A stretch of DNA of 64,000 bases from an uncultured Nitrospirota bacterium (GTDB lineage Bacteria > CG2-30-53-67), in assembly GCA_945786985.1 (NCBI GenBank), contig CALZGC010000039.1:495-64494 (forward strand). Direction: 5' to 3'. The notes beneath the pieces are model-generated. The model had not been told where the DNA came from and searched no databases. It saw nothing but the letters and a program-made list of their open reading frames with translations. Shown here one piece after another: positions 23,949 through 42,387 of this stretch. Numbering within the stretch: the stretch's first letter is position 1; every line of letters starts with the position of its first letter. The position numbers and the translations under genes were made by a program.

Positions 23949-23951
23949 CGG

Positions 23952-29545: not shown

Positions 29546-29561
29546 TGGTACGGGAATTGCA
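29546..29561 (+). promoter_or_regulatory. sigma-54 (−24/−12) promoter for the regulator–cytochrome operon
   Basis: TGGTACGGGAATTGCA matches the TGGCAC-N5-TTGCW spacing exactly, ~58 nt upstream of ATG 29619. An A/T inverted repeat (TTTTTTCCTTGAAAAAA, ~29462) and direct repeats (GCAAATCCGG...CCAAATCCGG, ~29250–29283) lie further upstream. Confidence 0.6.
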
Positions 29562-29618
29562 CGTTAGCACCCTATTACTCTTGCCCCCGCAGACAGCTGT
29601 TACGAAAAGGACCCGCAC

Positions 29619-29996
29619 GTGCATAAAAACATCCTGGTCGTTGATGATGAGAAGCTTGTCCGGTGGACCATCCAGCAATCCATGGGGAAACAGAATGTCC
29701 GAGTGGTCTCCGCTGCAACCGGGGCGGAAGCCATGGAGAAGCTCCGGGAAGAACGTTTTGACATCATCATCACCGACTACGTCATGCCCGGGTTCAATGG
29801 CATTGAAGTGGCTCGCCGGGCCCGCCTGCTTCAGCCGGAGAGCAAGATTATCATGATTACAGCCCACGAAATGATTCTGGACCGGGATGAGGCGGACCGG
29901 GCGGGCGTGAGCAGTATCATCAACAAGCCGTTCATGATCAGTGAGGTCAGAAACATCATCTCGGATCTCCTGTCGGAACAGAGAGACTCTGCATAA
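29619..29996 (+). CDS. single-domain response regulator (CheY-like)
   Basis: VVDDEKLVRW...IIITDYVMPG...phospho-Asp pocket. Its stop overlaps the start of the next gene (TAATG). Confidence 0.88.
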   Translation: MHKNILVVDDEKLVRWTIQQSMGKQNVRVVSAATGAEAMEKLREERFDIIITDYVMPGFNGIEVARRARLLQPESKIIMITAHEMILDRDEADRAGVSSIINKPFMISEVRNIISDLLSEQRDSA

Positions 29997-31348
29997 TGAT
30001 TCCTACGCGTATACTTTGTATCACAGCACTCTTGCTATGTCTTTACACACAACTGACCCTGGCGCCGGTGGAAGGGGCCGACGCGCTACCTCATGCCGGC
30101 CTGGCCGACGCCGCACCGGAGGTCTGCTTCAAATGCCACAAGGATCTTGCCACGCCCCCCGAAGGAGGCGTCGTGCATGCAGCCTTCGGAATGGGAGACT
30201 GTTCCATCTGCCATCTGCTGGGAGCGGACAACCGGTTCCAACTCATAGACACCGGCGCCGGCCTCTGTTACATGTGTCACGATGCGAAAAACACCCAGGC
30301 CAAGGTCCACAGCCCCGTAGCCTCAGGGGACTGCATCTTGTGTCACAATCCGCACCAGTCCCCCAACCCGAAGATGCTCATGGACTATCCGGTGAACAAG
30401 CTTTGCTTCAACTGCCACGATGAAGCGATGGCAAAGCATGCCTACGTCCATGTTCCCGTCTCAGAAGGGGAATGCACGAGCTGCCACGACCCCCATCAAT
30501 CGCCGCACGACAAACAGCTTCGGGAAGAGGGAAACAACCTATGCCTCATGTGTCATGCGGACAAAGAAGAGGATCTGAAGACCAAGAAACACGTGCATGA
30601 GGCCGTCGAAATGGTGGGGTGCACGGGCTGCCACAGTCCGCATGCCTCGGACACCAAATACCAGCTGCTCAGCGCACCCCCTGACCTCTGCTACACCTGC
30701 CACTCCGACAAAGAGGGGCCGGTGAAAACGCCGCACGGCGCCATCGAGATGAAAGGGAGCTGCGTCAACTGTCATGACCCCCATGCCTCCGACCATGAAG
30801 CACAATTAAAGGCTGCGGAAAACAAAGACCTCTGTCTCAAGTGTCACGATCGCAGGCGGAAGACAAAAAGCGGCTATATCCTCAACATGAAGGCCCATCT
30901 GGAAAAGAACCCGGAGCACCACGGGCCCATATTAATGGGAGACTGCGCGTCCTGCCACAACCCGCACGGCTCCGACGAATGGCGGATGCTGAAAAAACCT
31001 TTTCCGGCGGAGTTTTACGTCCCCTTTAAGCTGGAACGCTATGGCCTCTGTTTCGAATGCCATGACGAATCACTGGTTCTGGACGAGAACACGACGGCCA
31101 ACGGGTTCAGAAATGGCGAGATGAACCTGCATTTTGTCCACGTGAGCGATCCCCGTAAGGGTAGACGGTGCGTCGTCTGCCACGACGCCCATGCAGCCCA
31201 AGGACCGAAACATGTTCGGGAGACCGCCAAATTCGGGTCATGGGACCTTCCCATACGCCTCGAACTCCTGGAAGACGGCGGACGCTGTGCCCCCGGATGT
31301 CATCTCCCCCGGGCATACAACCGTAGCAAACCGGTAAAAAACAGGTGA
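29996..31348 (+). CDS. multihaem c-type cytochrome (14 CxxCH plus a C-terminal CxxxCH)
   Basis: Signal peptide. Motifs CFKCH, CSICH, CYMCH, CILCH, CFNCH, CTSCH, CLMCH, CTGCH, CYTCH, CVNCH, CLKCH, CASCH, CFECH, CVVCH, CAPGCH. Recurrent CxxCHxPHxS spacing typical of doubled-CXXCH/c7-type polymers. Confidence 0.9.
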   Translation: MIPTRILCITALLLCLYTQLTLAPVEGADALPHAGLADAAPEVCFKCHKDLATPPEGGVVHAAFGMGDCSICHLLGADNRFQLIDTGAGLCYMCHDAKNTQAKVHSPVASGDCILCHNPHQSPNPKMLMDYPVNKLCFNCHDEAMAKHAYVHVPVSEGECTSCHDPHQSPHDKQLREEGNNLCLMCHADKEEDLKTKKHVHEAVEMVGCTGCHSPHASDTKYQLLSAPPDLCYTCHSDKEGPVKTPHGAIEMKGSCVNCHDPHASDHEAQLKAAENKDLCLKCHDRRRKTKSGYILNMKAHLEKNPEHHGPILMGDCASCHNPHGSDEWRMLKKPFPAEFYVPFKLERYGLCFECHDESLVLDENTTANGFRNGEMNLHFVHVSDPRKGRRCVVCHDAHAAQGPKHVRETAKFGSWDLPIRLELLEDGGRCAPGCHLPRAYNRSKPVKNR

Positions 31349-31519
31349 TTATGACAAAAACATGCTGTAAGATGGGCGAAATCGCTCACAAACTGCGGTA
31401 AAAAACTCATTTCCGCCAAGACGAATCCTTTGTATAATGACAACTAAAGGGGTGTTGAGCCAAGCTAACCAACTGAAAACAAAAGATTTAGCTAAAAGTC
31501 AACCCCTTGAAACCCTCGT

Positions 31520-31535
31520 TGGCACAGCTCTTGCT
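31520..31535 (+). promoter_or_regulatory. sigma-54 (−24/−12) promoter for the 4-haem cytochrome gene
   Basis: TGGCACAGCTCTTGCT, a perfect TGGCAC-N5-TTGC. Followed by a ~175-nt leader before ATG 31710. Confidence 0.65.
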
Positions 31536-31709
31536 TACGTTATATGGAGAGAAAACAAATTTAAGTGATTTTTGGATTACGATAATCGGTGCAAACCAAA
31601 GAAAAAAGGAGGTGAAGATTCAACCCAGGGAAGGGGACGCGGGGGTTGGTTCCCCAAAAAGATTTCAAAGTTCACCATAGGGTGATTTCACAATCTTAGA
31701 GGAAGGAAG

Positions 31710-32378
31710 GTGTACATCATGAAAAAAGTATCCGCTATCATCTTTGCCATCATTTTCGCAGCCATGACGGCGGGCGTTGCCGTCGCCGGCCCCGGACCTG
31801 GAACCGGGATTTCGGGATCCAAGCATGACCTCAGCGGCTTGGTCCCCGGAGAGGTCCAGCTCTGCATCTACTGCCATGCGCCCCACAACGGAACCGGAGC
31901 CGCAGGCGGCCTTCTCTGGAATCATTCGCCGTCGGCAGCAACCTACAATATGTATACCGAGGAGGCTGCGAGTGACCCCGCTTTCGCGAACTTCATCAAC
32001 GGCGCGCAGGATGCGGAGCCGACGGGCTCTGCAAAACTCTGCCTGAGCTGTCATGACGGCACGGTGGCCATCGACGCCTACGGTGGCGCTGCAGGGACGG
32101 TCAACATGACCGCCTTTCCCAACGCTAATCTGGGCCTCGACCTGTCGGACGACCACCCCATCTCCATCGTCTACGATGACGCGGCTGATCTCGGTCTGTT
32201 TCCGAAGGCCGCCGTCAACCTGGGTGCGGTGAATCTCACGGACATTCTCGAGAACGACAAAATCAACTGCGTGGCCTGCCACGATGTGCACAACTCTCCC
32301 GGAGAGACTGTGGACGCTCCCTTCGTCAGGGTGACCATGACCGGCAGTGCTCTCTGCCTGAGGTGCCACGACAAATAA
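31710..32378 (+). CDS. tetrahaem c-type cytochrome (doubled-CXXCH-type)
   Basis: Signal peptide. SKHDLS motif, then CIYCH, CLSCH, CVACH, CLRCH. Confidence 0.88.
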   Translation: MYIMKKVSAIIFAIIFAAMTAGVAVAGPGPGTGISGSKHDLSGLVPGEVQLCIYCHAPHNGTGAAGGLLWNHSPSAATYNMYTEEAASDPAFANFINGAQDAEPTGSAKLCLSCHDGTVAIDAYGGAAGTVNMTAFPNANLGLDLSDDHPISIVYDDAADLGLFPKAAVNLGAVNLTDILENDKINCVACHDVHNSPGETVDAPFVRVTMTGSALCLRCHDK

Positions 32379-32409
32379 GCCTTGGCATGATCCTCAACCG
32401 AATGCAGCA

Positions 32410-32442
32410 AAGCCCCTATGAGATTTCATAGGGGCTTTTTTG
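32410..32442 (+). terminator. Rho-independent terminator
   Basis: GCCCCTATGAGATTTCATAGGGGC hairpin followed by TTTTTT. Confidence 0.7.
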
Positions 32443-32610
32443 GGGCTCTCACCGAGGAAATCTTTGGCAAGCGTCCACTGCAAAGGGGGGTTTTTCGACG
32501 GCATCGGATGGACTGGGCACAGAATCGAGGCACCGCAGTCAGGGCAAAGGAATCTTTCGGCCCTCGAGTGTGGGGTGCGATAGCGTGTCAATTTTGCCTT
32601 AAATACTTTA

Positions 32611-32639
32611 TTGACACGTTTGAACCTGCATGATAAACT
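32611..32639 (+). promoter_or_regulatory. candidate sigma-70-type promoter for the NHL-lipoprotein operon
   Basis: TTGACA-N17-TAAACT, ~80 nt upstream of ATG 32716. Confidence 0.3.
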
Positions 32640-32715
32640 TGAATATATTCAAAAGGTTAGCTTGTCAGGAAAGTGCCCAGATCTTTCAGCATCATTCCAA
32701 TTGGAGACAGAGAAG

Positions 32716-35169
32716 ATGATGGCTTCGTATGCAAGGAACGCCGCGTGCCGACGAATCGTACTCACCAGCCTCCTTGGCTGCTGTATGTCGCTATTCCTGG
32801 GGATAGGCTGTGCCCCTGTGCAGAAGAAACTGGGCACCAGTTTCTACCCGCCGCCGCCGCAGCCGCCCAAGATACAGTTTCTCGCACGCGTCGCTTCATC
32901 CAAGGATGTGGTACCGACGAAGCGATTTCAGAGCTTTGTCATCGGTGAGGAGCCGCCCAACCGCTTCATCAAGCCCTACGGTGTGGAGGCGCAGAACGGC
33001 ATCATCTATGTCTGCGATATGCGGCGCGCCGCCGTCGCAGAGATCGATATCGTCGACCACAAGTTCCAGTGGCTGCGCAACGAAGGCGCCGGAAAACTTC
33101 GAAAGCCGATCAACCTCGCGGTCGACAAGGACGGGACGAAATATGTGGCCGATGTCGCCCTCGGCCAGGTCATGGTTTACGACAAAGCCAATCGCTTCAA
33201 GAAAGCCTTCGGCACGGAAGGTCAGTTCAAGCCGGTGGATGTGGCGGTCTTCGAGGAGAGGCTCTACGTTCTCGATATCCAAGACCATCAAGTGGAGATC
33301 CTGAACAAGAACACCGGCGCCGTTGTAGGAACCATCGGCAGCCCCGCCTTGGAGGAGGGGCAGCTCGCAAAGCCGTCAAACATCTATCTAGACAAGGACG
33401 GCAATATCTATGTCACGAACACGCTGAACTGCCGCATCGAGAAATATGATGATCAAGGCAATCACCTGCTCTCCGTGGGTGAGTGCGGGGATGCGATCGG
33501 CTCTTTCATCCGGCCCAAGGGCGTTGCCGTCGACGACAAAGGTTTCATCTATGTCGTCGATGCGGCCTTTGAAAACGTGCAGATCTTCTCGCCCCAGGGG
33601 GAAACCGCTCTTTTCTTCGGCGGTCCAGGCGATGCCTCTGTCCCGGGAGCGCTCTGGCTCCCGGCCTCCATGGATATTACTTATGACAAGAGTCTGATCG
33701 CCTCCCTGAATGAAGTCCGCAACCCGGATTTTGATATCGAGTATCTGATTCTCGTCATGAGTCAGTTCGGTCCCCCCTACCTGAACATTTATGGATTTGG
33801 TGAACCTCGGGCGGCGTCACCTCTGGCCAGAGGCGACGCGGACGCCTACGAGCCTGAAACGGGCAAGCTCGAATCCGCCTCCGTACCGAGGGAGGTGGTA
33901 CCGGAAGAACCGGTCACACGAGCAACGGAAGAGGAAGCGGCACCCGAAAAGCTGGAGCCGCCCCCAACGGCGCTCGACAAGCCGGAAGTTGCCGCCGTCT
34001 CCAGCCCGTCCGCAGTGGATCAGGCGCCGGCCGTTGAACCGACCCGGCCTCCGGAGCCGAACGAAACAGATAAAGAAGAGAAGGAACTCGTTTCACTGAT
34101 CGAACATTGGAGAAACTGCTGGGATACCCTGGACTTCAATTGTTACATTGATCATTACGGCAGCGAATTCAAACACGGCAAGATGGATCTCGCCGGGTGG
34201 CGAGCTTACAAACGCTCCATTTTCAGGGAAAAGAAGCCCGTCGAGGTACAACTGGAGGACATCCGGATCTCCGGATCGGGGTCGAACCGGCGGGCGCGCT
34301 TCATGCAGACCTTTCGCTCCGGTCGGCTCAGCGACTACGGAGAGAAGGCGCTGACCCTAAGCCGGGAAGGAAACACCTGGAAGATCATCGGAGAAGAGTG
34401 GACAGCCGCCGAAAAAGTCGCGAAGGCGACCGTACCCGAAGCCGGCGATGCAAACCGTTCTGAGATTCTGAGTTTCATCGAGGGGTGGAGAAACTGCTGG
34501 GAAAGCTTGGACTTCAATTGCTACATCGATCATTACGGCAGCGGATTCAAACACGGCAAGATGGATCTCGCCGAGTGGCGAACCCATAAACGCTCCGTTT
34601 TCAAGAAAAAGAAGCGCGTAGAGGTTCAACTGGAGGACATCCGGATCTCCGGATCGGGATCGAACCGGCGGGCGCGCTTCATGCAGACCTTTCGCTCCGG
34701 TCGGCTCAGCGACTACGGAGAGAAGTTACTGACCCTCCGTCGAGAAGGCGACGCTTGGAAGATCATCGCAGAGAAGTGGACAGCCGCGGAAAGAGTCGCG
34801 AAGCCGACCGTACCCGAAGCTGGCGATGCAGACAGTTCTGAGATTCTGAGCTTCATCGAGGGGTGGAAGAACTGCTGGGAGTCTCTTGATTTCGACTGCT
34901 ATATGGAATATTACGGACAGGGCTTTCGGCATCATAAGATGGGCCTGGCTGATTGGAAAGATCACCGGCGCGGCGTCTTCTCCCGACAGAAGAACGTCCG
35001 TCTCACGTTCGAGGACATGGAGATCTCCGGGTTCGGATCAGATCGCAACATCCGTTTCCTGCAGACCTTCCAATCGGGACGATACACCGATTTCGGTGAA
35101 AAAAGATTGACCCTTCGCAAGGAAGGAGAAATCTGGAAGATCATCCGGGAAGAATGGAAGGCCCGGTGA
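32716..35169 (+). CDS. NHL-repeat beta-propeller lipoprotein with a Pro/Glu-rich linker and three tandem copies of an uncharacterised ~126-aa domain
   Basis: Lipobox LFLGIGC. Six YVxD-type NHL blades (IIYVCD, KYVADV, LYVLD, IYVTN, IYVVDA...). Linker. Three repeats: ILSFIEGWRNCWESLDFNCYIDHYGSGFKHGKMDLAEW...SGRLSDYGEK...WKII. Confidence 0.85.
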   Translation: MMASYARNAACRRIVLTSLLGCCMSLFLGIGCAPVQKKLGTSFYPPPPQPPKIQFLARVASSKDVVPTKRFQSFVIGEEPPNRFIKPYGVEAQNGIIYVCDMRRAAVAEIDIVDHKFQWLRNEGAGKLRKPINLAVDKDGTKYVADVALGQVMVYDKANRFKKAFGTEGQFKPVDVAVFEERLYVLDIQDHQVEILNKNTGAVVGTIGSPALEEGQLAKPSNIYLDKDGNIYVTNTLNCRIEKYDDQGNHLLSVGECGDAIGSFIRPKGVAVDDKGFIYVVDAAFENVQIFSPQGETALFFGGPGDASVPGALWLPASMDITYDKSLIASLNEVRNPDFDIEYLILVMSQFGPPYLNIYGFGEPRAASPLARGDADAYEPETGKLESASVPREVVPEEPVTRATEEEAAPEKLEPPPTALDKPEVAAVSSPSAVDQAPAVEPTRPPEPNETDKEEKELVSLIEHWRNCWDTLDFNCYIDHYGSEFKHGKMDLAGWRAYKRSIFREKKPVEVQLEDIRISGSGSNRRARFMQTFRSGRLSDYGEKALTLSREGNTWKIIGEEWTAAEKVAKATVPEAGDANRSEILSFIEGWRNCWESLDFNCYIDHYGSGFKHGKMDLAEWRTHKRSVFKKKKRVEVQLEDIRISGSGSNRRARFMQTFRSGRLSDYGEKLLTLRREGDAWKIIAEKWTAAERVAKPTVPEAGDADSSEILSFIEGWKNCWESLDFDCYMEYYGQGFRHHKMGLADWKDHRRGVFSRQKNVRLTFEDMEISGFGSDRNIRFLQTFQSGRYTDFGEKRLTLRKEGEIWKIIREEWKAR
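34084..35166 (+). repeat. three tandem 378-bp coding repeats (about 98% DNA identity between copies 1 and 2)
   Basis: An approximately 100-bp stretch CTGGAGGACATCCGGATCTCCGGATCGGG(G/A)TCGAACCGGCGGGCGCGCTTCATGCAGACCTTTCGCTCCGGTCGGCTCAGCGACTACGGAGAGAAG recurs at ~34252 and ~34630 with a single internal mismatch (period 378). Confidence 0.9.
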
Positions 35170-35266: not shown

Positions 35267-36349
35267 ATGAACCGTTACACCCGCATGCTGCTCATCGGCA
35301 CAGCCATTCTGGCTGTCACCCTTGGGCAGGCCTGCCAGCAAACGACCAAGCACAAGATCCTCAGCACACTCTTTGATGGGGTGCCCCCTCTGGAGACGGG
35401 CACACAGGAAGAAAGCACCGCGTCCGCGGAAACAGGCGCTGAGAATGCCGATCTCCAAGGGGCGGCGGAAAGAACGTACCGGGCAAGAAGAGCCCAGACC
35501 GCCCGAGCCTCAGGAATGGTCAAACACCCCCCCTATGCGGCGAAGATGTGCGACGGCTGCCACCAGGTGCGTCAAACCGCATCAGTCGCGCCCATGGGTT
35601 TTTCCCTGCGGGCGGAGAAAGACAAACTGTGCAGCCTGTGTCATGAGGACATGTCGCAGGAGGCACTGCAGGGGCGCTACCGGTGGATCCACGGTCCGGT
35701 TCAGTACGGCGCGTGTCTTGAGTGTCATAACCCCCACGAATCCCCCTTTCCCTTCATGCGGAAACAACCGACGGTCCGCAAACTTTGCCTCAATTGCCAC
35801 GACGAAGGGTGGTTCCGGGCTTCCGAGATTCATAGCGGCTTCGACGAAACCGAATGCACAGACTGCCACAACCCTCACGGCAGTCAGTTTCGCTATATGT
35901 TGACTTTCAGCGATGAAGGCACCGTTGAAGCAGCCGCAAAGACCGCTGCGCCTGCCAGCAGGAAACGTGAACAGGTGGCATCTTCTGCTCCGGCTGTGTC
36001 GGAACCCGATCGCGAATCACTCCTCGCCTTCCTGCGGCACTGGGAGCAATGTTGGGAGACCCTAGACCTAGAGTGCTATCTCGGCTTTTACGCACCGGAT
36101 TTCCGCCAAGGTGCCCGGGACCTGGAAGCGTGGAAGGCCTACCGGACGTCCGTCTTTGAAAAGAGCCGAAAAATAGACCTGACACTGGAGCGCATGGATG
36201 TCCAAAGTCTTGGAGAGACCTTTCAGATCACAGCCTTGCAGCGCTATCGGTCCGATCGGCACGAGGATGTGGGTACCAAGAAGCTTCGGGTGCGCCGAGA
36301 GGCAGACAGCTGGCAGATTATGCGGGAGACCTGGACCCCGAACAATTAG
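35267..36349 (+). CDS. pentahaem c-type cytochrome lipoprotein with a C-terminal copy of the same ~115-aa uncharacterised domain
   Basis: Signal/lipobox AVTLGQAC. CDGCH, CSLCH, CLECH, CLNCH, CTDCH. C-terminus LLAFLRHWEQCWETLDLECYLGFYAPDFRQG...WQIMRETW is homologous to the NHL-protein repeats. Confidence 0.88.
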   Translation: MNRYTRMLLIGTAILAVTLGQACQQTTKHKILSTLFDGVPPLETGTQEESTASAETGAENADLQGAAERTYRARRAQTARASGMVKHPPYAAKMCDGCHQVRQTASVAPMGFSLRAEKDKLCSLCHEDMSQEALQGRYRWIHGPVQYGACLECHNPHESPFPFMRKQPTVRKLCLNCHDEGWFRASEIHSGFDETECTDCHNPHGSQFRYMLTFSDEGTVEAAAKTAAPASRKREQVASSAPAVSEPDRESLLAFLRHWEQCWETLDLECYLGFYAPDFRQGARDLEAWKAYRTSVFEKSRKIDLTLERMDVQSLGETFQITALQRYRSDRHEDVGTKKLRVRREADSWQIMRETWTPNN

Positions 36350-36391
36350 CCCGGAAATGTCGTCAACGAGCTTTTTGAGCCAGGGCTTTTC

Positions 36392-38434
36392 GTGAAGAGA
36401 AAGACAATAAGACGGATGAAACGTCAAATGGCCGAAGGGCTCCTCGCATGCGTGATGTTCGCATTTTGCGTTCTATCCGCCTATGGTTCCGCCGGTGCCC
36501 AGGAAACGAGTCCCTTCCGCATTACCGGAACCCGAGGGTTTGTCGGCTTCGGATGGGAGCGCGAGGATGAGACACGGCAGGAAAGCCGCGGTCTTGGTGA
36601 CGAAATTGAGGATGTGGACAGCGAGATCTTTGAAGAGATCGGTCTCGGTGTCGACGGATTTGTCTACCATCCGCTGCTCTTAGACTTCCGGGCCGATGTG
36701 GATGCGGTCTTCAAACAGGTCGACTTCAGCACAAACACCAGAGCCATTCCGGACCAGGATGAGAATTATCTCAACTACGACATCTTTGCGAGAATCCTCA
36801 AAGAGCACCGGCTCTCTTTCTGGCTGAGCTCCAACCAGCAGCGCCAGGATATCAACACACCCTTCTTTGACACAAGCCGTATTACCACCACGCAGCACAG
36901 CGCCGGCTTCACCTACCTGCATCCGGTCATTCCGGTCTGGTCCGGCTACTCCCATGAGACCTCCGATGGCGAAGGGAGCGTACAACGGGATGAACAGCGG
37001 GACAAACTCTATGTCGAGGCCAAGAATGAGGGTCCGCTGGGCGACAGCCTGCTCCGGTATGAAAAGGAGGAGCGCGCCGACGATTTCAGCGATGTCGATT
37101 TGAAGATCGACGCCCTGGACTTCACCAACATCTTCCCCTTCGGCGTCGACGACCGCCATGCGCTTCGCAGCCAGTTGCGCTACCAGGACCAGCGGGGCAC
37201 GAGCCCCATTGAAACCACTTTCATCGATGAAAGTCTGGACTTTCGCCACAGCCAGCGGTTGCGAACTTATGCAGGCTTTTCCTATTACGATTCGGATTTC
37301 GATGTTCAGACCACCAACCAGACACGCTACCGCGCCGGCTTGGAGCATCATCTCTACGACAGCCTGGTCACCACCCTGGAAGGGCGCGTCGAGAATTACG
37401 AAATCGATGAAGGCTTCAACGACAGCTACGCAGGAGATCTCGGCCTCAATTACCGGAAAAGGCTGCCCCTCGGTTCGCTGGATCTGCGGTACCGCGGCGT
37501 CATCCGGCGGGAGGACGAAGACTTCTCCGGTAATGTGACCAGCGTTTTCCTCGAGAGTCACACCTTCGGTGAGCTCATTTTCGACGAGATCGTTCTAAAC
37601 CGGGATTTCGCGGTGTCGGACTCCATAGAGCTCGTCGACGCGAGCGGCGTCCCCCTCGTCGATCCCGGCCTCAACCCCGTCACCGAGGGAATCCACTATC
37701 AGATTATAGTCGTGGGAAAGGTGACGCGAATCAGGCTCATTCCGCCGGCGGGCAGCTTTCTTTCCGGTGCGGATGTCTTCGTCAATTACGATTCCGTACC
37801 ACAACCGCCCATCGAGTTTACCTCCTATGAGCAGTTCTACGGGGCCACACTCAATCTCAAAGATATCTGGAGGGTCTACTACGCGGGCGCACGAATCAAC
37901 CAGGTATTGCGAGACGGTGTTGATTTCGGCAACCGGCTGGATGACATCCGGGACCGTACCTATGGCCTTGAAGCCAACTACGGCTTTTCAAGTAGCAAAG
38001 CGGAGAGAAAAGAGCACCACTCCAAAAGGAATCCCTTTGAGACGGACTTCCTTTCCCAGGAGTTTCAAATCCACCTGTGGAACAACGCGGACCTCTTCTT
38101 GACCGGTATTTACTCGGACACGGTCACCTTCGAAGACGTCGATCGCACGATCGATCGCGTTGCCTCGGCGCGGCTCGCCGTCTTTCTTTCGAAGCTTCGG
38201 TGGGCTCAATGGGATATTGAAACGACGTATGCGAACCGCGATCTCATTAATGAAGACCAGGAGAGCGTGAAGCTTCGCACCGAATTTTTCTGGCGGTACA
38301 AACGGATCGATTTCACCGTCACTTACGAGTATTGGAACCTTGACCGGGAAGTATTCGGAGACGAAGACAGCCACTACTTCTTTGTCCGTTTGAGAAGATT
38401 TTTCGGAACACAAGACCGGAGGGCACGGCGATGA
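36392..38434 (+). CDS. large outer-membrane beta-barrel protein (candidate porin of a porin–cytochrome conduit)
   Basis: Signal peptide (LLACVMFAFCVLSAYGSAGAQE). 680 aa of alternating aromatic/polar beta-strand patterns, rich in Y/F/W/D/R, with an aromatic C-terminal region (FTVTYEYWNL...HYFFVRLRRFF). Similar in size to MtrB-class 26-strand barrels. Stop overlaps the next gene's start (ATGA). Confidence 0.55.
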   Translation: MKRKTIRRMKRQMAEGLLACVMFAFCVLSAYGSAGAQETSPFRITGTRGFVGFGWEREDETRQESRGLGDEIEDVDSEIFEEIGLGVDGFVYHPLLLDFRADVDAVFKQVDFSTNTRAIPDQDENYLNYDIFARILKEHRLSFWLSSNQQRQDINTPFFDTSRITTTQHSAGFTYLHPVIPVWSGYSHETSDGEGSVQRDEQRDKLYVEAKNEGPLGDSLLRYEKEERADDFSDVDLKIDALDFTNIFPFGVDDRHALRSQLRYQDQRGTSPIETTFIDESLDFRHSQRLRTYAGFSYYDSDFDVQTTNQTRYRAGLEHHLYDSLVTTLEGRVENYEIDEGFNDSYAGDLGLNYRKRLPLGSLDLRYRGVIRREDEDFSGNVTSVFLESHTFGELIFDEIVLNRDFAVSDSIELVDASGVPLVDPGLNPVTEGIHYQIIVVGKVTRIRLIPPAGSFLSGADVFVNYDSVPQPPIEFTSYEQFYGATLNLKDIWRVYYAGARINQVLRDGVDFGNRLDDIRDRTYGLEANYGFSSSKAERKEHHSKRNPFETDFLSQEFQIHLWNNADLFLTGIYSDTVTFEDVDRTIDRVASARLAVFLSKLRWAQWDIETTYANRDLINEDQESVKLRTEFFWRYKRIDFTVTYEYWNLDREVFGDEDSHYFFVRLRRFFGTQDRRARR

Positions 38435-39618
38435 CGGCAGAGGACCAGATCACGACGCATAGAGTTCCAAGCGGAAACCGGATCGGATTGACGGTGCTGC
38501 TCACGCTTTCCCTGACTGCCTGCGCCGGCCAGGTGCAGATGCCAACCGAACCGACTCCGCCGGCACCGTTGACTCGCGTGTGGCCGGCACCGCCGGAGCG
38601 GCCCCGAATCACGCTGGTCCGGGAGATTCAGCTTCCGAGAGATATCCGGCAAAAACCGAGCGCCTGGCGGAAGATCGTGGAGTTCATCGCCGGGAAGGAA
38701 CCGCAGCCGACCTTGGTCCGCCCATACGGCGTCACTGTAGATCCTGGCGAACGCCTTCTGGTCGCCGACACCGGAGCCCAGCGTGTCCATATCTTTGATC
38801 TGAATTCAGGACTGTACGAGAAGCTTCCTCACCCCAAGGACGATCTGCGCCTCCTCTCACCCATTGATGTACAGGTGGACGGTTCCGGCCGCATCTATGT
38901 TTCCGACTCGGAGGCCCGCAAAGTCCACATCTTCAATGCCGAGGGGAGGCTGGAGAAAAGCCTGGCAGGTTTTGAACGTCCCACCGGACTGGCCGTCAAC
39001 AAAAGCCTGGGGCAGCTCTTGGTGGTCGACACCAAAGCGCAACAGATTCATGTTTTCAGCACCGCCGGCGAGCGCCTCTTCTCCTTCGGACGCCGCGGGG
39101 GAGGCAACGGAGAGTTCAATTTCCCGACGAACATCTGTCTCGATCGCCGGGGAAACATCTATATAACCGATTCGATGAATTTTCGTGTACAGGTCTTCGA
39201 TCCGAAAGGAAACTTCTTGAGTCGTTTCGGCAAGGCCGGCGACGGACCCGGACGGTTCTCAAAACCGCGAGGCATAGCCGTCGACAGCGACGGGCACATA
39301 TACGTCTCCGACGCGTCCTTCGACAACATCCAGATCTTCAACATCCAGGGGCAGATCCTGCTCTATTTCGGAGCCCCCGGCGTCTCGCCGGGAGAGTTCT
39401 ATATGCCCGCGGGAATCACCATCGATGCAAGCAACCGGATCTTCGTCGCGGACTCCTACAACCACCGAATCCAGGTCTTTCAGTATCTCAAGCCAGACCT
39501 GGAATCGGAAAAGAGCAGCTCCGGATCGAAAAGATCGTCCGAAGATCAGACAGCGCCGTCTCTCAGGTCCAATACACAACTTGACGTTTCCGCTCGAACG
39601 GGTTGGATCGGGCGGTAG
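38431..39618 (+). CDS. NHL-repeat beta-propeller lipoprotein
   Basis: Lipobox LSLTAC. Six NHL blades (LLVADTG, IYVSDSE, LLVVDTK, IYITDSMNFRVQVF, IYVSDASFDNIQIF, IFVADSYNHRIQVF). Confidence 0.88.
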   Translation: MTAEDQITTHRVPSGNRIGLTVLLTLSLTACAGQVQMPTEPTPPAPLTRVWPAPPERPRITLVREIQLPRDIRQKPSAWRKIVEFIAGKEPQPTLVRPYGVTVDPGERLLVADTGAQRVHIFDLNSGLYEKLPHPKDDLRLLSPIDVQVDGSGRIYVSDSEARKVHIFNAEGRLEKSLAGFERPTGLAVNKSLGQLLVVDTKAQQIHVFSTAGERLFSFGRRGGGNGEFNFPTNICLDRRGNIYITDSMNFRVQVFDPKGNFLSRFGKAGDGPGRFSKPRGIAVDSDGHIYVSDASFDNIQIFNIQGQILLYFGAPGVSPGEFYMPAGITIDASNRIFVADSYNHRIQVFQYLKPDLESEKSSSGSKRSSEDQTAPSLRSNTQLDVSARTGWIGR

Positions 39619-39656
39619 GGACGGACGACTCCCTTTTGCACAGTGGAGGAATCAAC

Positions 39657-41402
39657 ATGAAAAGGCTCACAGAAAGAAAGAGCGGAGGCAATCCCTTCAA
39701 TAGACGCTTCCTTTGCGTCGCGGCCCTTGTGCTGCTTGCCTTTGCCAGCAGCGCCGCGGCCCTCATGAGCGTCGTGGACTCCAAACACAATCTCTCCATC
39801 AGCGGTCCCGGCACCATGAAAGCCACGGCGGAATCGGAGATCTGCATTTTCTGCCATACCCCTCACGGCGCGGAGCCGGGGGGTGTTCTCTGGAACCGTG
39901 CGGACCCCGCAGGCCCCTACCAGACTTACGACAGTACCACCATACAGACCTTTGTCGGCCAGCCGACGAAAGCCTCCCGGAAGTGCCTGAGTTGTCATGA
40001 CGGCACCATCGCGCTCGGGCAGGTCTCCAGCCGGCCCGCACAAATACCGATGAGCCAGCAGTTTCTCAACACCGGTCCCGCATTCCTGGACACCGATCTG
40101 AGGGACGATCATCCCATTTCACTCAACTACGGCAGTGCCCCGACGCCCGAGTACAAGAATCCGGCCACCCTGACAGGCCCCGTGAAGCTCGACAAAGACG
40201 ATGATCTGCAGTGTACGGCGTGCCACGATCCGCACGATGATACGTTGGGCGATTTTCTGACCGACACCACCTTCCAATCCGCTCTCTGCCTGAACTGCCA
40301 CCAGCCGACGGGCTGGACCACTGGCACGCACCGAAACTCCGCGGCTGGCTGGAACGGCAGCCCTCCGGACCCATGGCCCCATACAGACTACACGTCGGTG
40401 GCGGAGAACGCCTGCGAAAACTGCCATCGCCCCCACAGTGCGGGACGGGATCCACACATTCTCAACGAATTCCTCGAAGAGGACAACTGCTACCCCTGCC
40501 ACAACGGCAACCTGGTGGGGGCCATCAATAATTTCGACATCCAGAGCGAATTCGTCAAACCCTCGAATCATCCCATCGGCAGCACCGTGGGCACCCACGA
40601 GCCGACCGAGGACTATCTGACCATGGCGCGCCACGTGGAATGCGCCGACTGTCACAACCCCCATCAGGCCAATGACACCCCGGCCAACGCCCCCCTGGTC
40701 AGCGGCGCGTTGCTGGGTGTCAAGGGGGTCGATGCCGCAGGCGGCGTAGTCGACCCGTCGATCAACGAATACGAGATCTGCTTCAACTGCCACGCCGACA
40801 GCGCCCCGGGGCCGATCCCTATACCGCGCCAGATTCCCGAAGTGAACAAGCGACAACAGTTTGCCCTGAGCAATCCGTCCTATCACCCCGTGGAGGGGCC
40901 CGGCAAGAATGCCAACGTCCCGAGCCTCGCCGGCATGACACTCAACGGCGTACCTCTCACCACCGGCACCGTGATCTACTGCACCGACTGCCACAACAAC
41001 AACAACGGCCCCGGCGCCGGCGGCGGCGGCCCCAATGGCCCCCACGGCTCGACCTATGACTACCTGCTGGAAAGGCGCAATGAGACGGCCGACTTCACCC
41101 CCGAGAGTTCCACGAACTACGCCCTCTGCTACAAGTGCCATAACCGGAACAGTATCCTGAACGACGACAGTTTCGATGAGCACGACAAGCACATCCGTGG
41201 CGAAGATGCTCCCTGTTCGGTCTGTCACGACCCCCACGGCGTCGACGGCACCGCCTCGAACAATACGCATTTGATCAACTTCGACACCTCTGTCGTCTTC
41301 CCCAGCGGTGGACAGCTATGGTTTCGAGACGACGGAGTTTTTGGGGGAACATGCCGCCTCGTCTGCCATGGCGAGGATCACAATCCGTTCAACTACCCAT
41401 AA
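39657..41402 (+). CDS. multihaem c-type cytochrome (11 CxxCH plus a C-terminal CxxxCH)
   Basis: Signal peptide. SKHNLS motif. CIFCH, CLSCH, CTACH, CLNCH, CENCH, CYPCH, CADCH, CFNCH, CTDCH, CYKCH, CSVCH, CRLVCH. Confidence 0.9.
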   Translation: MKRLTERKSGGNPFNRRFLCVAALVLLAFASSAAALMSVVDSKHNLSISGPGTMKATAESEICIFCHTPHGAEPGGVLWNRADPAGPYQTYDSTTIQTFVGQPTKASRKCLSCHDGTIALGQVSSRPAQIPMSQQFLNTGPAFLDTDLRDDHPISLNYGSAPTPEYKNPATLTGPVKLDKDDDLQCTACHDPHDDTLGDFLTDTTFQSALCLNCHQPTGWTTGTHRNSAAGWNGSPPDPWPHTDYTSVAENACENCHRPHSAGRDPHILNEFLEEDNCYPCHNGNLVGAINNFDIQSEFVKPSNHPIGSTVGTHEPTEDYLTMARHVECADCHNPHQANDTPANAPLVSGALLGVKGVDAAGGVVDPSINEYEICFNCHADSAPGPIPIPRQIPEVNKRQQFALSNPSYHPVEGPGKNANVPSLAGMTLNGVPLTTGTVIYCTDCHNNNNGPGAGGGGPNGPHGSTYDYLLERRNETADFTPESSTNYALCYKCHNRNSILNDDSFDEHDKHIRGEDAPCSVCHDPHGVDGTASNNTHLINFDTSVVFPSGGQLWFRDDGVFGGTCRLVCHGEDHNPFNYP

Positions 41403-41415
41403 GCGAGGTTCGGCT

Positions 41416-42387
41416 TTGAAAAACCTTTTTCTATTGCTCTTTTTCGGACTGATCGTTGCGTCGGGCGCCGGTGCATCCGATCTCTCCGCCAAGGCTGTGA
41501 TGGCCACGGTCAACGGCGTTGCCATCACACGCAGCCTGGTCGAGGCCGAGGTGCGCCGCCTGGTCCCGAGGACCCTTTTTCACCAGAGCATCGATGCCGA
41601 GAAACTCGCCGCCTTTCGCAAGGACGCGCTCGAGAGCCTGATTGACAAGGAACTCCGGGTCCAGGAGGCAGCGCGTCTCGGACTCACGGTCGACAAGCGT
41701 GCCGTTGGGACGGAACTCAAGAAGGTGATCGAACGCTATTCGAACAAGAGGGAATTCGAAAAGCGACTCAAAGCGGCGGGCTATTCCACCCGGGATGCCA
41801 AAGAGGAAATTGAAAGACGGCTGCTGGCCGATCTCGTTTTTCAACGGGAAGTCGTCGCGCGCGTCAAGGTCAGCGACCAGGAGGCCCGAAGCTATTATGA
41901 AGCCAATCAGGAGAAGTTCGTGGAGCCTCGCCGCTTCAACCTGAGCCACATCCTGGTGAAAGTGCCTCCCCTGGCGAACGATTTCGAAGAAAAAGCGCTG
42001 GAGAAGAAGACCAAGGAGATCGCCAGACAAATCCGGGCAGGACTCACCTTTGACGAGGCCGTGCGCAAGTACGCGGAAGGAGACGACCAGGACGACGGCG
42101 GTGACATGGGCTGGGTTCACGAGGGGCGGCTCGTGCCGGAAATCGAGCAGGAAATCGCCAAATTGACGCCCGGTGAGATTGCCGGCCCCTTCCGAACCTT
42201 TCGGGGCTTCAGGATCTTCCGCGTGGACGAAGTCCGCACCGAGAGACAGGTCCCCTTCCCTGAGATCCGGGACAAGCTCCTGGCCGACCTCACCGAGAAA
42301 GCCATTCAGGAAAGAGAAACCGTCTGGAAGGCAGGACTAAGAGAGAAGGCTGAAATCGTTCGCCACGAACTTCCGGCCGGAAACTAG
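41416..42387 (+). CDS. SurA/PrsA-like peptidyl-prolyl cis-trans isomerase (SurA N-domain plus one PpiC/parvulin domain)
   Basis: TTG start 7 nt after a GAGGT RBS, giving signal peptide LKNLFLLLFFGLIVASGAGA. Parvulin motif FNLSHILVKV...GGDMGWV. Confidence 0.8.
   Translation: MKNLFLLLFFGLIVASGAGASDLSAKAVMATVNGVAITRSLVEAEVRRLVPRTLFHQSIDAEKLAAFRKDALESLIDKELRVQEAARLGLTVDKRAVGTELKKVIERYSNKREFEKRLKAAGYSTRDAKEEIERRLLADLVFQREVVARVKVSDQEARSYYEANQEKFVEPRRFNLSHILVKVPPLANDFEEKALEKKTKEIARQIRAGLTFDEAVRKYAEGDDQDDGGDMGWVHEGRLVPEIEQEIAKLTPGEIAGPFRTFRGFRIFRVDEVRTERQVPFPEIRDKLLADLTEKAIQERETVWKAGLREKAEIVRHELPAGN

What the first reader, a model, noticed from the sequence alone, without database searches (positions are those of the whole stretch)
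29546..42387. Sigma-54-driven operon set encoding a candidate undescribed outer-membrane electron conduit
Seen in sequence: about 13 kb of co-directional, tightly coupled genes.
- A CheY-like regulator whose stop overlaps the start of a 14-haem cytochrome.
- A 4-haem cytochrome behind its own sigma-54 promoter.
- An NHL beta-propeller lipoprotein carrying three copies of an unknown domain.
- A 5-haem lipoprotein cytochrome with the same domain at its C-terminus.
- A 680-aa beta-barrel overlapping (ATGA) a second NHL lipoprotein.
- An 11/12-haem cytochrome.
- A SurA-like parvulin starting 14 nt after the cytochrome stop.

Established knowledge: periplasmic cytochrome + porin-like barrel + outer-membrane lipoprotein cytochrome is the logic of porin–cytochrome (Pcc/Ext/Mtr) conduits in Geobacter and Shewanella.

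Inference: the composition here (two NHL propellers, repeated unknown domain, dedicated periplasmic chaperone, sigma-54 control) does not match any named conduit I recognise. It may be a new class.
Basis: partly seen in the sequence, partly recalled or inferred. Interest (0 to 1): 0.85.

Follow-up and report, generated by a model that had tools for sequence, protein, structure and literature searches.

The report
OmcE-type cytochrome nanowire gene cluster
This 13-kb stretch is one copy of a widespread gene set that encodes an OmcE-like "nanowire" cytochrome together with its outer-membrane barrel, helper lipoproteins and feeder cytochromes, so it is a known kind of system found in an uncultured lineage, not a new class of electron conduit.

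Summary
The claim that it matches no named system does not hold.

- **Filament subunit:** the "4-haem cytochrome" is a homologue of OmcE, the subunit of solved extracellular cytochrome filaments (PDB 9YUQ E=4e-21; 7TFS E=3e-18). All four CXXCH motifs and four distal His are invariant.
- **Parts list:** OmcE-like subunit, two NHL lipoproteins, a large barrel and multihaem cytochromes match the published omcE cluster (Petersen et al. 2025). By composition, with the parvulin added, they also match the uetA–J cluster of Tenderiales.
- **Conservation:** in 39 related loci with at least 18 kb of sequence, carrying at least 15 phylum-level labels, five core genes co-occur in 32.
- **Barrel:** it models confidently (pLDDT 89.6) as a barrel of about 28–30 strands. 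It has no Pfam family and no specific solved homologue.
- **"Unknown domain":** it is PF24125, the Csd6/Pgp2-type NTF2-like domain. Among these loci it occurs only in this MAG and its closest relative.
- **Sigma-54:** only omcE has a well-supported sigma-54 promoter.

One less expected result: the strongly conserved 11-haem cytochrome has an OmcE-like N-terminal module. It could be the filament's base or adaptor. That is inference.

Verdict: new member of a known kind, moderate interest.

The parts
26005..27780 (+). Sensor protein upstream of the cluster (dCache-like/HAMP/PAS/HisKA; no HATPase_c hit)
   Evidence: Pfam. The same gene precedes the cluster in L002.
27868..29238 (+). NtrC-type sigma-54 enhancer-binding response regulator (receiver + AAA+ Sigma54_activat + HTH_8)
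   Evidence: PF00158 E=2.5e-67, PF00072, PF02954. A strong NtrC-like match (E<1e-40) lies within the fetched flanks in 11 of 39 long related loci, in several directly upstream of the OmcE gene.
29546..29561 (+). Weak sigma-54-like -24/-12 motif TGGTACGGGAATTGCA upstream of cheY
   Evidence: One mismatch. The -12 element is not conserved in L002. A conserved sigma-70-like TTGAAA-17-TAGACT lies at 29469-29497.
29619..29996 (+). Stand-alone CheY-like receiver, translationally coupled to the next gene (TAATG)
   Evidence: PF00072 E=6e-26; overlap read.
29996..31348 (+). c14: periplasmic MtrA/DmsE-like cytochrome, 14 CXXCH + 1 CX3CH, Sec signal peptide
   Evidence: Haem motifs. PDB 6r2q_A (MtrA chain of the Mtr complex) E=2.6e-16. 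TIGR03508 reaches 160 bits, below its cut-off of 192. In 20 homologues 13 CXXCH and the CX3CH are conserved.
31520..31535 (+). Sigma-54 promoter of omcE, TGGCACAGCTCTTGCT (perfect consensus)
   Evidence: Conserved as TGGCACGGCTCTTGCT in L002. Motifs with at most 1 mismatch occur upstream of 11 of 79 OmcE homologues, against 1 of 79 on the antisense control.
31719..32378 (+). OmcE-like tetrahaem cytochrome, the putative filament subunit (UetA-like)
   Evidence: PDB 9yuq E=4e-21 and 7tfs E=2.8e-18 over the full length. Four CXXCH and four distal His are invariant in the alignment with both solved subunits.
32411..32441 (+). Intrinsic terminator after omcE (13-bp stem + U6), which makes omcE monocistronic
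   Evidence: Fold dG -24.3 kcal/mol, z = -4.4, 0 of 200 shuffles as good; sequence.
32611..32639 (+). Sigma-70-like promoter (TTGACA-17-TAAACT with TG) ahead of the NHL-A to SurA operon
   Evidence: Consensus scan, 10 of 12 matches. Consensus match only; function not shown.
32716..35169 (+). NHL-A: beta-propeller lipoprotein (UetH/I-like) with three C-terminal Csd6/Pgp2-type NTF2-like domains (34078-34401, 34456-34779, 34834-35157)
   Evidence: PF01436 and PF24125 x3, E=8.8e-62. Repeats located. PDB 7o21, 4xzz (Csd6) and 6xj6 (Pgp2) match the domain. Lipobox LLGC/GIGC read from the sequence. The propeller part is conserved next to OmcE in 59 adjacent pairs.
35267..36349 (+). c5: pentahaem lipoprotein cytochrome with a C-terminal NTF2-like domain (36011-36334)
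   Evidence: Five CXXCH. All five are invariant and the lipobox Cys is conserved in 92% of 53 sequences. PF24125 E=2.3e-18.
36428..38434 (+). Outer-membrane beta-barrel of about 28-30 strands with a small inserted domain (about residues 395-460); UetC-like
   Evidence: AF2 pLDDT 89.6, pTM 0.74. Family of 2062 50%-identity representatives, 788 at E<=1e-30. No Pfam or NCBIfam hit. Only generic barrel matches in the PDB. Present in 38 of 39 long related loci.
38431..39618 (+). NHL-B: six-bladed NHL beta-propeller lipoprotein (lipobox LTAC), ATGA-coupled to the barrel gene
   Evidence: PF01436 E=5.6e-46, five stretches. Overlap read. The Nb->c11 pair is adjacent for 49 of 54 c11 genes, median gap -4.
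39657..41402 (+). c11: undecahaem (11 CXXCH + 1 CX3CH) cytochrome whose N-terminal ~200 residues are an OmcE-type module; UetJ-like
   Evidence: PDB 7tfs E=2e-25 over residues 41-234. All 12 motifs and the OmcE-module His are invariant in 39-52 homologues. At least 7487 clusters at E<=1e-20; the 120 listed are 51-62% identical.
41416..42387 (+). SurA-like periplasmic chaperone with one parvulin PPIase domain (UetB/OscH-like by role)
   Evidence: PF00639, PF13624. PDB SurA E=6e-24. The TTG start is 13 nt after the c11 stop. A clear SurA-like gene was found near the cluster only in L002 and L075, with a marginal minus-strand match in L011 (E=2.6e-05), among 80 related loci.

Best explanation
The region is an OmcE-type extracellular cytochrome filament ('nanowire') locus. 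It lies in a MAG (GCA_947259695.1) whose closest relative is labelled 'uncultured Nitrospirae', lineage CG2-30-53-67.

**Shown by the sequence and comparisons**
- A monocistronic, sigma-54-promoted, terminator-bounded gene encodes an OmcE homologue. It keeps all eight haem-ligating residues of the solved filament subunits.
- Around it lies the conserved companion set:
  - two NHL beta-propeller lipoproteins;
  - a pentahaem lipoprotein;
  - a barrel of about 28-30 strands;
  - an MtrA-like 13/14-haem periplasmic cytochrome;
  - a strongly conserved undecahaem whose N-terminal module is itself OmcE-like;
  - here, also a SurA-like chaperone.

**Inferred mechanism**
1. The NtrC-type activator switches on heavy transcription of the subunit gene.
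2. Subunits cross the inner membrane by Sec and receive haem.
3. The parvulin chaperone keeps them assembly-competent.
4. They pass through, or are anchored at, the large barrel with help from the two propeller lipoproteins.
5. Outside the cell they polymerise by His-to-haem cross-coordination.
6. Electrons travel between the periplasm and the filament through the MtrA-like c14 seated in the barrel, and through the undecahaem.
7. The undecahaem's OmcE-like module is well suited to dock onto a filament end.

The direction of electron flow (reduction of external acceptors, or uptake as proposed for Uet) cannot be read from the sequence.

In this lineage, four Csd6/Pgp2-type NTF2-like domains sit on NHL-A and on the pentahaem lipoprotein. 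They probably tie the complex to peptidoglycan, which would place those two lipoproteins on the periplasmic face.
For: **OmcE homology**
- PDB 9yuq E=4e-21 and 7tfs E=2.8e-18.
- Four CXXCH and four distal His are invariant.

**Published definition of the omcE cluster**
- Petersen et al. define it as OmcE, two beta-propeller lipoproteins, a large beta-barrel and two multihaem cytochromes.
- They use a nearby barrel and propeller lipoprotein as the criterion for nanowire-capable homologues.

**Neighbourhood conservation**
- The barrel profile hits 65 of 81 loci and NHL proteins 77 of 81.
- In 39 loci of at least 18 kb the five core genes co-occur in 32, six in 27 and all seven in 14.
- Fixed adjacencies are E->Na (59), Na->c5 (42), c5->B (46), B->Nb (27, median gap -4) and Nb->c11 (49 of 54, median gap -4).
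- Geobacteraceae loci L065 and L059 carry the same genes and the same barrel family, E=6e-84 and 9e-38.

**Individual components**
- Barrel model: pLDDT 89.6.
- c14 resembles MtrA.
- The c11 N-module resembles OmcE, E=2e-25. G. sulfurreducens OmcE is 36-41% identical to c11 N-domains in other phyla.

**omcE transcription unit**
- Perfect sigma-54 promoter, conserved in L002.
- Enrichment of the motif upstream of homologues, 11 of 79 against 1 of 79.
- Strong terminator.
- An enhancer-binding-protein gene lies next door.

**NTF2-like domains**
- They match Bd1075, Csd6 and Pgp2.
- The title of PMC8038945 reports peptidoglycan binding by a pocket on the Pgp2 NTF2 domain.

**Chaperone precedent**
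- OscH is proposed for OmcS nanowire folding, cited through PMC13194489.
Against: - No filament has been seen for this organism or for any close relative. Identity to the two solved OmcE subunits is only 34-36%.
- The role of the barrel, propellers and companion cytochromes in OmcE secretion or anchoring is a hypothesis even in Geobacter and Desulfuromonas (discussion section).
- Petersen et al. state that no OmcE-like tip candidate is encoded in omcE operons. My reading of c11 differs from theirs. It rests on sequence homology only.
- The AF2 model of c11 was unusable (pLDDT 45.8).
- The locus is not in the purHDE...ffh syntenic position described for Desulfuromonadia.
- Among the 80 related loci a SurA-like gene is found in only two, plus one marginal hit. 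It is therefore not a core part.
Confidence: 0.7

Rival explanations
1. A non-filamentous porin-cytochrome conduit of the Uet/Mtr type. The MtrA-like c14 sits in the barrel. The undecahaem and the tetrahaem act as monomeric surface or transmembrane cytochromes. Electrons may flow inward, by oxidation of minerals, Fe(II) or cathode-like donors, as proposed for Ca. Tenderia electrophaga.
For: - The parts list equals uetA (tetrahaem), uetB (PPIase), uetC (28-strand barrel), uetH/I (NHL) and uetJ (undecahaem).
- c14 is homologous to MtrA.
- Related loci occur in Fe- and S-oxidiser lineages: Thiobacillaceae, Woeseiaceae, Thiodiazotropha.
- Direction of flow cannot be read from the sequence.
Against: - The tetrahaem is homologous over its full length to two subunits solved as filaments and keeps every ligand, including those needed for inter-subunit coordination.
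- Its own strong promoter and terminator fit a bulk structural subunit.
- The Uet authors themselves allow that UetA or UetJ may polymerise.
- This rival overlaps the best explanation. It differs mainly on polymerisation and direction.
Confidence: 0.2
2. One reading: a previously undescribed class of outer-membrane electron conduit, unrelated to named systems.
For: - The barrel has no Pfam or NCBIfam family and no specific solved homologue.
- The c11 family carries only generic names in databases.
- The NTF2-like decorations are unique among 80 related loci.
Against: - The core gene set and order are those of the published omcE cluster and, by composition, the uet cluster.
- The module is present in Geobacter-family genomes.
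- The tetrahaem is an OmcE homologue.
Confidence: 0.03
3. A periplasmic redox or enzymatic module in which the NHL propellers are enzymes and the barrel imports a substrate, with no electron transfer beyond the outer membrane.
For: - NHL and SGL-type propellers include lactonases and other enzymes, with weak hits to SGL, Arylesterase and Lactonase.
- The NTF2-like domains point to a periplasmic location for two of the lipoproteins.
Against: - The propellers are always paired with specific cytochromes: E->Na, and Nb->c11 with overlapping stop and start.
- No catalytic family reaches its threshold as a specific assignment.
- OmcE homologues are extracellular where solved.
Confidence: 0.05

Closest known systems
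omcE gene cluster of Desulfuromonadia (G. sulfurreducens GSU0618 region; D. soudanensis WTL), encoding the OmcE cytochrome nanowire (PDB 7TFS, 9YUQ)
   Same: - Tetrahaem OmcE homologue with all eight haem ligands.
- Two beta-propeller lipoproteins.
- A large beta-barrel of the same sequence family as in the Geobacteraceae loci L065 and L059.
- Accompanying multihaem cytochromes.
- The same gene order, E-Na-c5-B-Nb-c11-c13/14.
   Different: - Different host lineage: the closest relative is labelled Nitrospirae/CG2-30-53-67.
- Not in the purHDE...ffh syntenic slot.
- No glycosylation gene block is visible in the ORF set examined. One family-2 glycosyltransferase-like ORF lies 8 kb upstream, and not every neighbouring ORF was scanned.
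- Extra Csd6/Pgp2-type NTF2-like domains on NHL-A (three) and on c5 (one).
- An adjacent SurA-like chaperone.
- An HK/NtrC/CheY regulatory set with c14 coupled to cheY.
- Only 34-36% identity to the solved subunits.
uetABCDEFGHIJ (undecahaem electron transfer) cluster of Ca. Tenderia electrophaga/Tenderiales, also reported in Gallionella and Leptothrix
   Same: Same kinds of parts:
- tetrahaem (UetA);
- peptidylprolyl isomerase (UetB);
- beta-barrel predicted with 28 strands (UetC);
- two NHL proteins (UetH/I);
- an undecahaem with 11-12 motifs (UetJ).

Related loci here that carry tri-haem genes next to the module (L020, L032, L070) resemble the uet layout.
   Different: - No tri-haem c7 genes (UetD/E/G) and no cupredoxin (UetF) inside the operon. 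Instead there are a pentahaem lipoprotein and an MtrA-like 14-haem protein.
- The proposed physiology of Uet is electron uptake.
- Direct sequence homology to Tenderia proteins could not be tested because no reference sequences were reachable.
- The two source papers I searched do not mention each other's system. The equivalence is my inference.
osc (omcS-companion) cluster of G. sulfurreducens (Shen et al. 2025, Cell Chem Biol; known to me through PMC13194489 and my own recollection of the abstract)
   Same: Same logic: a filament-forming cytochrome encoded with a prolyl-isomerase chaperone (OscH), channel-like proteins (OscEFG) and a beta-propeller-like protein (OscD).
   Different: - OmcS is a hexahaem with no sequence similarity to OmcE.
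- Homology of the companions was not tested, because the paper and the sequences are not held.
MtrCAB / Pcc / Ext porin-cytochrome conduits
   Same: A periplasmic MtrA-like multihaem cytochrome (c14 against 6r2q_A, E=2.6e-16) encoded with a large barrel and a lipoprotein cytochrome.
   Different: - It has more strands than the 26 reported for MtrB (figure quoted).
- No MtrC/OmcA-family protein reaches the family threshold.
- The module also contains an OmcE-type subunit and two propellers.

Membership tests
OmcE-type cytochrome nanowire cluster | Tetrahaem homologous to OmcE, with four CXXCH and four further haem-ligating His conserved | tested here: met
   phmmer against the PDB: 9yuq E=4e-21, 7tfs E=2.8e-18. 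All eight ligands are invariant in alignment A3.
OmcE-type cytochrome nanowire cluster | Large outer-membrane beta-barrel gene next to omcE (criterion used by Petersen et al.) | tested here: met
   AF2 barrel, pLDDT 89.6. The same family is found in Geobacteraceae loci L065 and L059 and in 38 of 39 long loci.
OmcE-type cytochrome nanowire cluster | Two beta-propeller lipoproteins in the cluster | tested here: met
   NHL hits for both. Lipoboxes LLGC/GIGC and LTAC were read from the N-termini. Lipidation itself is not testable.
OmcE-type cytochrome nanowire cluster | At least two further multihaem cytochromes | tested here: met
   c5 (5 haems), c11 (11+1) and c14 (14+1), each with conserved homologues in related loci.
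OmcE-type cytochrome nanowire cluster | The subunit polymerises into an extracellular filament with inter-subunit His-haem coordination | not testable with these tools
   Needs cryo-EM or expression. Only ligand conservation could be shown.
OmcE-type cytochrome nanowire cluster | Location between purHDE/resB/ccsB and tRNA-modification/ffh (described for Desulfuromonadia; a lineage trait rather than a defining one) | tested here: not met
   Upstream ORFs give ptsI, hprK, rpoN, acsV-like, moeA and kinase genes. Downstream ORFs give MopE-repeat cytochromes, a beta-CASP hydrolase, a ROK protein and GH57. None of the syntenic marker genes appears among the ORFs scanned.
Uet (undecahaem electron transfer) cluster | Undecahaem UetJ-type cytochrome (11-12 haem motifs) with a tetrahaem UetA-type cytochrome | tested here: inconclusive
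   The haem counts match: 11 CXXCH + 1 CX3CH, and 4 CXXCH, against the descriptions. No Uet reference sequence was available, so homology is untested.
Uet (undecahaem electron transfer) cluster | UetC beta-barrel of about 28 strands, UetH/I NHL proteins, UetB peptidylprolyl isomerase | tested here: inconclusive
   The barrel model has 29-30 DSSP strand segments. Two NHL proteins and a parvulin are present. This is a match by kind only.
Uet (undecahaem electron transfer) cluster | Tri-haem c7 cytochromes UetD/E/G and cupredoxin UetF inside the cluster | tested here: not met
   None between 29546 and 42387. A weakly c7-like tri-haem is encoded divergently at 42471-43001.
MtrCAB-type porin-cytochrome conduit | Barrel belongs to the MtrB/PioB family | tested here: not met
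   [not shown]
MtrCAB-type porin-cytochrome conduit | Periplasmic decahaem of the MtrA/DmsE family | tested here: inconclusive
   c14 hits 6r2q_A at E=2.6e-16. TIGR03508 scores 160 bits, below its cut-off of 192.2. It is a relative with 14-15 haems, not a family member by the curated threshold.
osc (OmcS-companion) assembly system | Homology of the chaperone, channel and propeller proteins to OscH, OscEFG and OscD | not tested
   Reference sequences and the paper are not held. Only the functional analogy is drawn.

The most novel reading that the evidence does not exclude
The strongly conserved undecahaem (c11, UetJ-like) may be the missing base or adaptor subunit of OmcE filaments.

- Its N-terminal OmcE-type module would copolymerise with the first or last OmcE subunit through the same His-haem cross-coordination.
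- Its eight further haems, held by the always-adjacent NHL-B lipoprotein, would connect the filament through the 28-30-strand barrel to the MtrA-like c14.

On this reading the 'omcE cluster' of metal reducers and the 'uet cluster' of electrotrophs and Fe oxidisers are one ancient seven-gene machine. It is spread over at least 15 phylum-level lineages and can run in either direction. In this lineage it would additionally be pinned to peptidoglycan by NTF2-like domains.
Probability: 0.3. Interest if true: 0.75.

Novelty: new member of a known kind. Interest (0 to 1): 0.4.

Why it matters
How cytochrome nanowires are secreted, anchored and fed with electrons is an acknowledged open question. This locus adds no new class. 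The comparison it prompted gives three concrete, testable leads.

1. **A fixed core module.** E, NHL-A, c5, barrel, NHL-B and c11, often with c13/14, recur with fixed adjacencies far outside the five phyla reported so far.
2. **The best-conserved part is an OmcE fusion.** c11 is an OmcE-module fusion that could dock onto a filament end.
3. **Two named systems may be one.** omcE and uet appear to describe the same machine. That would link metal reduction and electron uptake mechanistically.

The locus also extends candidate long-range electron-transfer capacity to an uncultured lineage related to CG2-30-53-67.

Tried and rejected
- **Word-indexed protein search with a 47-sequence barrel alignment.** It returned only the five close relatives already known, so one capped search was wasted.
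- **The search for related loci with the barrel alignment.** I used an OmcE alignment instead.
- **AF2 of c11 from locus-derived homologues.** With 38 database homologues the model was unusable (pLDDT 45.8, pTM 0.27), so no fold search was run on it.
- **afdb50 fold search.** Not available, so the barrel could not be tied to a named UniProt entry such as the G. sulfurreducens protein.
- **Source papers.** Wang et al. 2022 (PMC9357133) and Shen et al. 2025 (PMC11845295) are not held. Their content is cited only through papers that quote them.
- **Rfam on the long omcE 5' leader and the cheY leader.** Nothing credible; the best hit was STnc210 at E=0.83.
- **A shared upstream activator site between the two promoter regions.** Only short 8-mers are shared, which is not convincing.
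- **PCC3 of Fe oxidisers as the match.** Rejected. PCC3 is defined by 21-27-haem periplasmic and 10-35-haem extracellular cytochromes plus an inner-membrane protein. However, some betaproteobacterial loci have a 21-24-haem gene next to this module.

Full report
**1. What is in the sequence**

| Gene | Coordinates | Key features |
|---|---|---|
| CheY-like receiver | 29619-29996 | TAA stop shares a base with the next ATG |
| c14 cytochrome, 450 aa | 29996-31348 | 14 CXXCH + 1 CX3CH |
| Tetrahaem, 219 aa | 31719-32378 | 4 CXXCH |
| NHL-A lipoprotein, 817 aa | 32716-35169 | Three 126-aa C-terminal repeats |
| c5 lipoprotein cytochrome, 360 aa | 35267-36349 | 5 CXXCH; one copy of the same repeat |
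| Barrel protein, 668 aa | 36428-38434 | Signal peptide; ATGA overlap with the next gene |
| NHL-B lipoprotein, 395 aa | 38431-39618 | Lipobox LTAC |
| c11 cytochrome, 581 aa | 39657-41402 | 11 CXXCH + 1 CX3CH |
| SurA-like parvulin | 41416-42387 | TTG start 13 nt after the c11 stop |

- Gene starts follow the calls on the public record. That record is GCA_947259695.1, contig CAMYNS010000010.1.
- A sensor protein (26005-27780) and an NtrC-type sigma-54 activator (27868-29238) lie immediately upstream.

**2. The key identification**

*The tetrahaem is an OmcE homologue.*
- It matches over its full length the two OmcE subunits solved as extracellular filaments. These are D. soudanensis (9YUQ, E=4e-21) and G. 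sulfurreducens (7TFS, E=2.8e-18).
- In a four-way alignment the four CXXCH motifs are invariant.
- So are the four additional His, in the motifs KH, CH-x-PH, DHP and CH-xx-H.
- Petersen et al. single out the same eight ligands.

*The cluster matches the published omcE cluster.*
- That preprint describes the minimal omcE cluster as two multihaem cytochromes, two beta-propeller lipoproteins, the OmcE subunit and a large beta-barrel.
- It treats a nearby barrel and propeller lipoprotein as the mark of nanowire-capable homologues.
- The window cluster fits this description gene for gene.

*It also matches the uet cluster by parts list.*
- The uetABCDEFGHIJ cluster of Ca. Tenderia electrophaga comprises:
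  - a tetrahaem (UetA);
  - a peptidylprolyl isomerase (UetB);
  - a 28-strand barrel (UetC);
  - two NHL proteins (UetH/I);
  - an undecahaem (UetJ).
- The Uet preprint does not mention OmcE, and Petersen et al. do not mention Uet.
- I could not obtain Uet sequences. The equivalence therefore rests on composition and is marked as inference.

**3. Conservation elsewhere**

*How widespread the module is.*
- An OmcE-based scan of one genome per GTDB species found at least 570 confirmed loci.
- The best 80 carry submitter labels from many lineages. They include:
  - Bacteroidota, Ignavibacteria/Melioribacteraceae and Calditrichota;
  - Verrucomicrobiota, Kiritimatiellia and Planctomycetota;
  - Gemmatimonadota, Myxococcota, Bdellovibrio and Deferribacteres;
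  - Spirochaetota, Sumerlaeota, Nitrospinae and Nitrospirae;
  - Alpha-, Beta- and Gammaproteobacteria, Desulfocapsa and Geobacteraceae.
- The nearest locus (89% identity) is 'uncultured Nitrospirae bacterium isolate ES_M_CG2-30-53-67_01'.

*How complete the module is in related loci.* I searched all ORFs of these loci with the window proteins and with a barrel profile.
- The barrel is found in 65 of 81 loci and NHL proteins in 77 of 81.
- Among 39 loci with at least 18 kb, the five core genes (E, NHL-A, barrel, NHL-B, c11) co-occur in 32.
- Those five plus c5 co-occur in 27, and all seven genes in 14.

*Gene order is fixed.*

| Adjacent pair | Count | Median gap |
|---|---|---|
| E->NHL-A | 59 | 89 |
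| NHL-A->c5 | 42 | 9 |
| c5->barrel | 46 | 4.5 |
| barrel->NHL-B | 27 | -4 |
| NHL-B->c11 | 49 of 54 c11 genes | -4 |

- Geobacteraceae loci L065 and L059 have the same genes and the same barrel family. This ties the window cluster to the Geobacter-type omcE cluster.

**4. The barrel**

- It has no Pfam or NCBIfam hit.
- An exhaustive profile search shows a large unnamed family. There are 2062 50%-identity representatives at E<=0.001 and 788 at E<=1e-30. Nearly all of the listed ones are 640-700 aa.
- AF2 with 47 sequences gives pLDDT 89.6 and pTM 0.74. The model has 29-30 long strand segments and a small inserted domain at about residues 395-460.
- Searches of solved structures return only generic barrels.
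  - Foldseek: TM at most 0.35.
- It is thus not a member of an unrelated named family. It is bigger than the 26-strand MtrB (strand count as quoted), in line with the 28 strands predicted for UetC.

**5. The companion cytochromes**

*c14*
- It is MtrA-like (6r2q_A, E=2.6e-16).
- It falls below the DmsE-family cut-off.
- Thirteen CXXCH and the terminal CX3CH are conserved in 20 homologues.

*c5*
- All five haem motifs are invariant, and the lipobox Cys is kept in 92% of 53 sequences.

*c11 is the most striking.*
- At least 7487 90%-identity clusters match at E<=1e-20.
- The 120 listed are 51-62% identical to it. Locus homologues from other phyla are 40-55% identical.
- This is far more conserved than OmcE (34-44%) or the barrel (16-41%).
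- Databases name the family only 'cytochrome c3 family' or 'hypothetical'.
- Its first ~200 mature residues are an OmcE-type module (7TFS, E=2e-25), with all eight ligands invariant in 39-52 homologues.
- G. sulfurreducens OmcE is as similar to c11 N-domains of other phyla as it is to most stand-alone tetrahaems. The figures are 36-41% identity and E about 1e-35 to 1e-39.
- Each cluster therefore encodes two OmcE-type modules, one free and one fused to eight further haems.
- Petersen et al. wrote that no OmcE-like tip candidate is encoded in omcE operons. The c11 N-module is a candidate for a filament-end (base or tip) subunit. That is my inference.
- The AF2 model of c11 was too poor to help.

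**6. Regulation and operon structure**

*omcE*
- It has a perfect sigma-54 -24/-12 element at 31520-31535, conserved in the closest relative.
- A 13-bp-stem/U6 terminator lies at 32411-32441 (dG -24.3, z -4.4).
- It is therefore a separately controlled monocistronic unit, as expected for a bulk structural subunit.
- Across related loci, motifs with at most one mismatch lie upstream of 11 of 79 OmcE genes, against 1 of 79 on the antisense control.
- A strong NtrC-like gene lies within the flanks of 11 of the 39 long loci, often directly upstream of omcE.

*cheY-c14 operon*
- The motif at 29546-29561 has one mismatch and loses its -12 GC in the relative.
- A sigma-70-like site at 29469-29497 is conserved.

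*NHL-A-to-SurA operon*
- It is preceded by a sigma-70-like site at 32611-32639, not by a sigma-54 motif.

*Window-wide count*
- The count of such motifs is not above chance.
- 'Sigma-54-driven operon set' is thus only partly right.

**7. What is particular to this lineage**

- The repeated 'unknown domain' is PF24125.
- It matches the C-terminal NTF2-like domains of Bd1075 (7o21, E=2.3e-15), Csd6 (4xzz) and Pgp2 (6xj6).
- Peptidoglycan binding is reported for the Pgp2 NTF2 domain (PMC8038945).
- Among the 80 related loci these domains occur only in the window and in L002.
- A clear SurA-like gene occurs only there and in L075, with one marginal hit in L011.
- By inference, NHL-A and c5 face the periplasm and tether the complex to the cell wall.
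- The locus is not in the purHDE...ffh position described for Desulfuromonadia.

**8. Mechanism and verdict**

- **Best-supported reading (confidence 0.7):** an OmcE-type filament locus with its outer-membrane assembly, anchoring and electron-feeding complex.
- **Shown:**
  - the homologies;
  - the ligand conservation;
  - the barrel fold;
  - the co-conservation of the genes;
  - the omcE transcription unit.
- **Inferred:**
  - polymerisation of the subunit;
  - the route through the barrel;
  - the roles of c14 and c11;
  - peptidoglycan tethering;
  - the direction of electron flow.
- **Main rival (0.2):** a non-filamentous Uet/Mtr-like conduit, possibly for electron uptake.
- **Novelty:** new member of a known kind, with lineage-specific decorations.
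- **Interest:** moderate (0.4). It comes mainly from the comparative leads:
  - the core module across many phyla;
  - the OmcE-module undecahaem;
  - the probable identity of the omcE and uet clusters.

Noticed in passing
window 43134-43220 (-), upstream of 42471-43001 (-): A c-di-GMP-I (GEMM-I) riboswitch aptamer (RF01051, 59.8 bits against a gathering score of 35) sits directly upstream of a small tri-haem, weakly c7-like cytochrome. That cytochrome is transcribed divergently from the end of the cluster.
   Followed up: partly
window 43553-45688 (-) and 47123-50038 (-): Two large cytochromes (10 and 12 CXXCH) carry N-terminal arrays of PF11617 MopE-type 'putative metal-binding' repeats (E=1.7e-59 and 4.7e-27). 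They are further candidate extracellular redox proteins next to the cluster.
   Followed up: partly
window 11054-12490 (-), with 8497-9447 (-) and 2878-4656 (-): The sigma-54 gene rpoN itself lies about 17 kb upstream of the cluster, together with hprK and ptsI.
   Followed up: no
window 22437-27780 (+): The regulatory block before the NtrC-type activator has three parts: a complete AtoS-like kinase (22437-23948), a fused PstS/PhnD-like periplasmic binding protein (24073-25986), and a sensor with dCache/HAMP/PAS/HisKA but no detectable HATPase_c domain (26005-27780).
   Followed up: no
L034, L035, L037 (Thiobacillaceae / betaproteobacterial MAGs): A 21-24-haem cytochrome gene lies divergently next to the E-NHL-barrel-NHL-c11 module. 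Its haem number recalls the periplasmic PCC3 subunit of Fe oxidisers.
   Followed up: no
L003, L018, L022, L023, L025, L028, L036, L041, L074: Many loci carry extra OmcE paralogues with five CXXCH motifs beside the four-haem gene. This matches the '5-haem OmcE-like' group that Petersen et al. proposed as a possible new nanowire family.
   Followed up: no
window 31536-31718 (+): The omcE leader is about 180 nt long. It has blocks conserved with L002 (for example AAAAAGGAGGTGA.GATTCAACCCAGGGAAGGGGAC), but no Rfam family matches it.
   Followed up: partly
window 20515-21039 (-): Another small ORF with four CXXCH motifs (174 aa) lies outside the cluster. It has no detectable similarity to the OmcE-like gene in the phmmer scan.
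   Followed up: no
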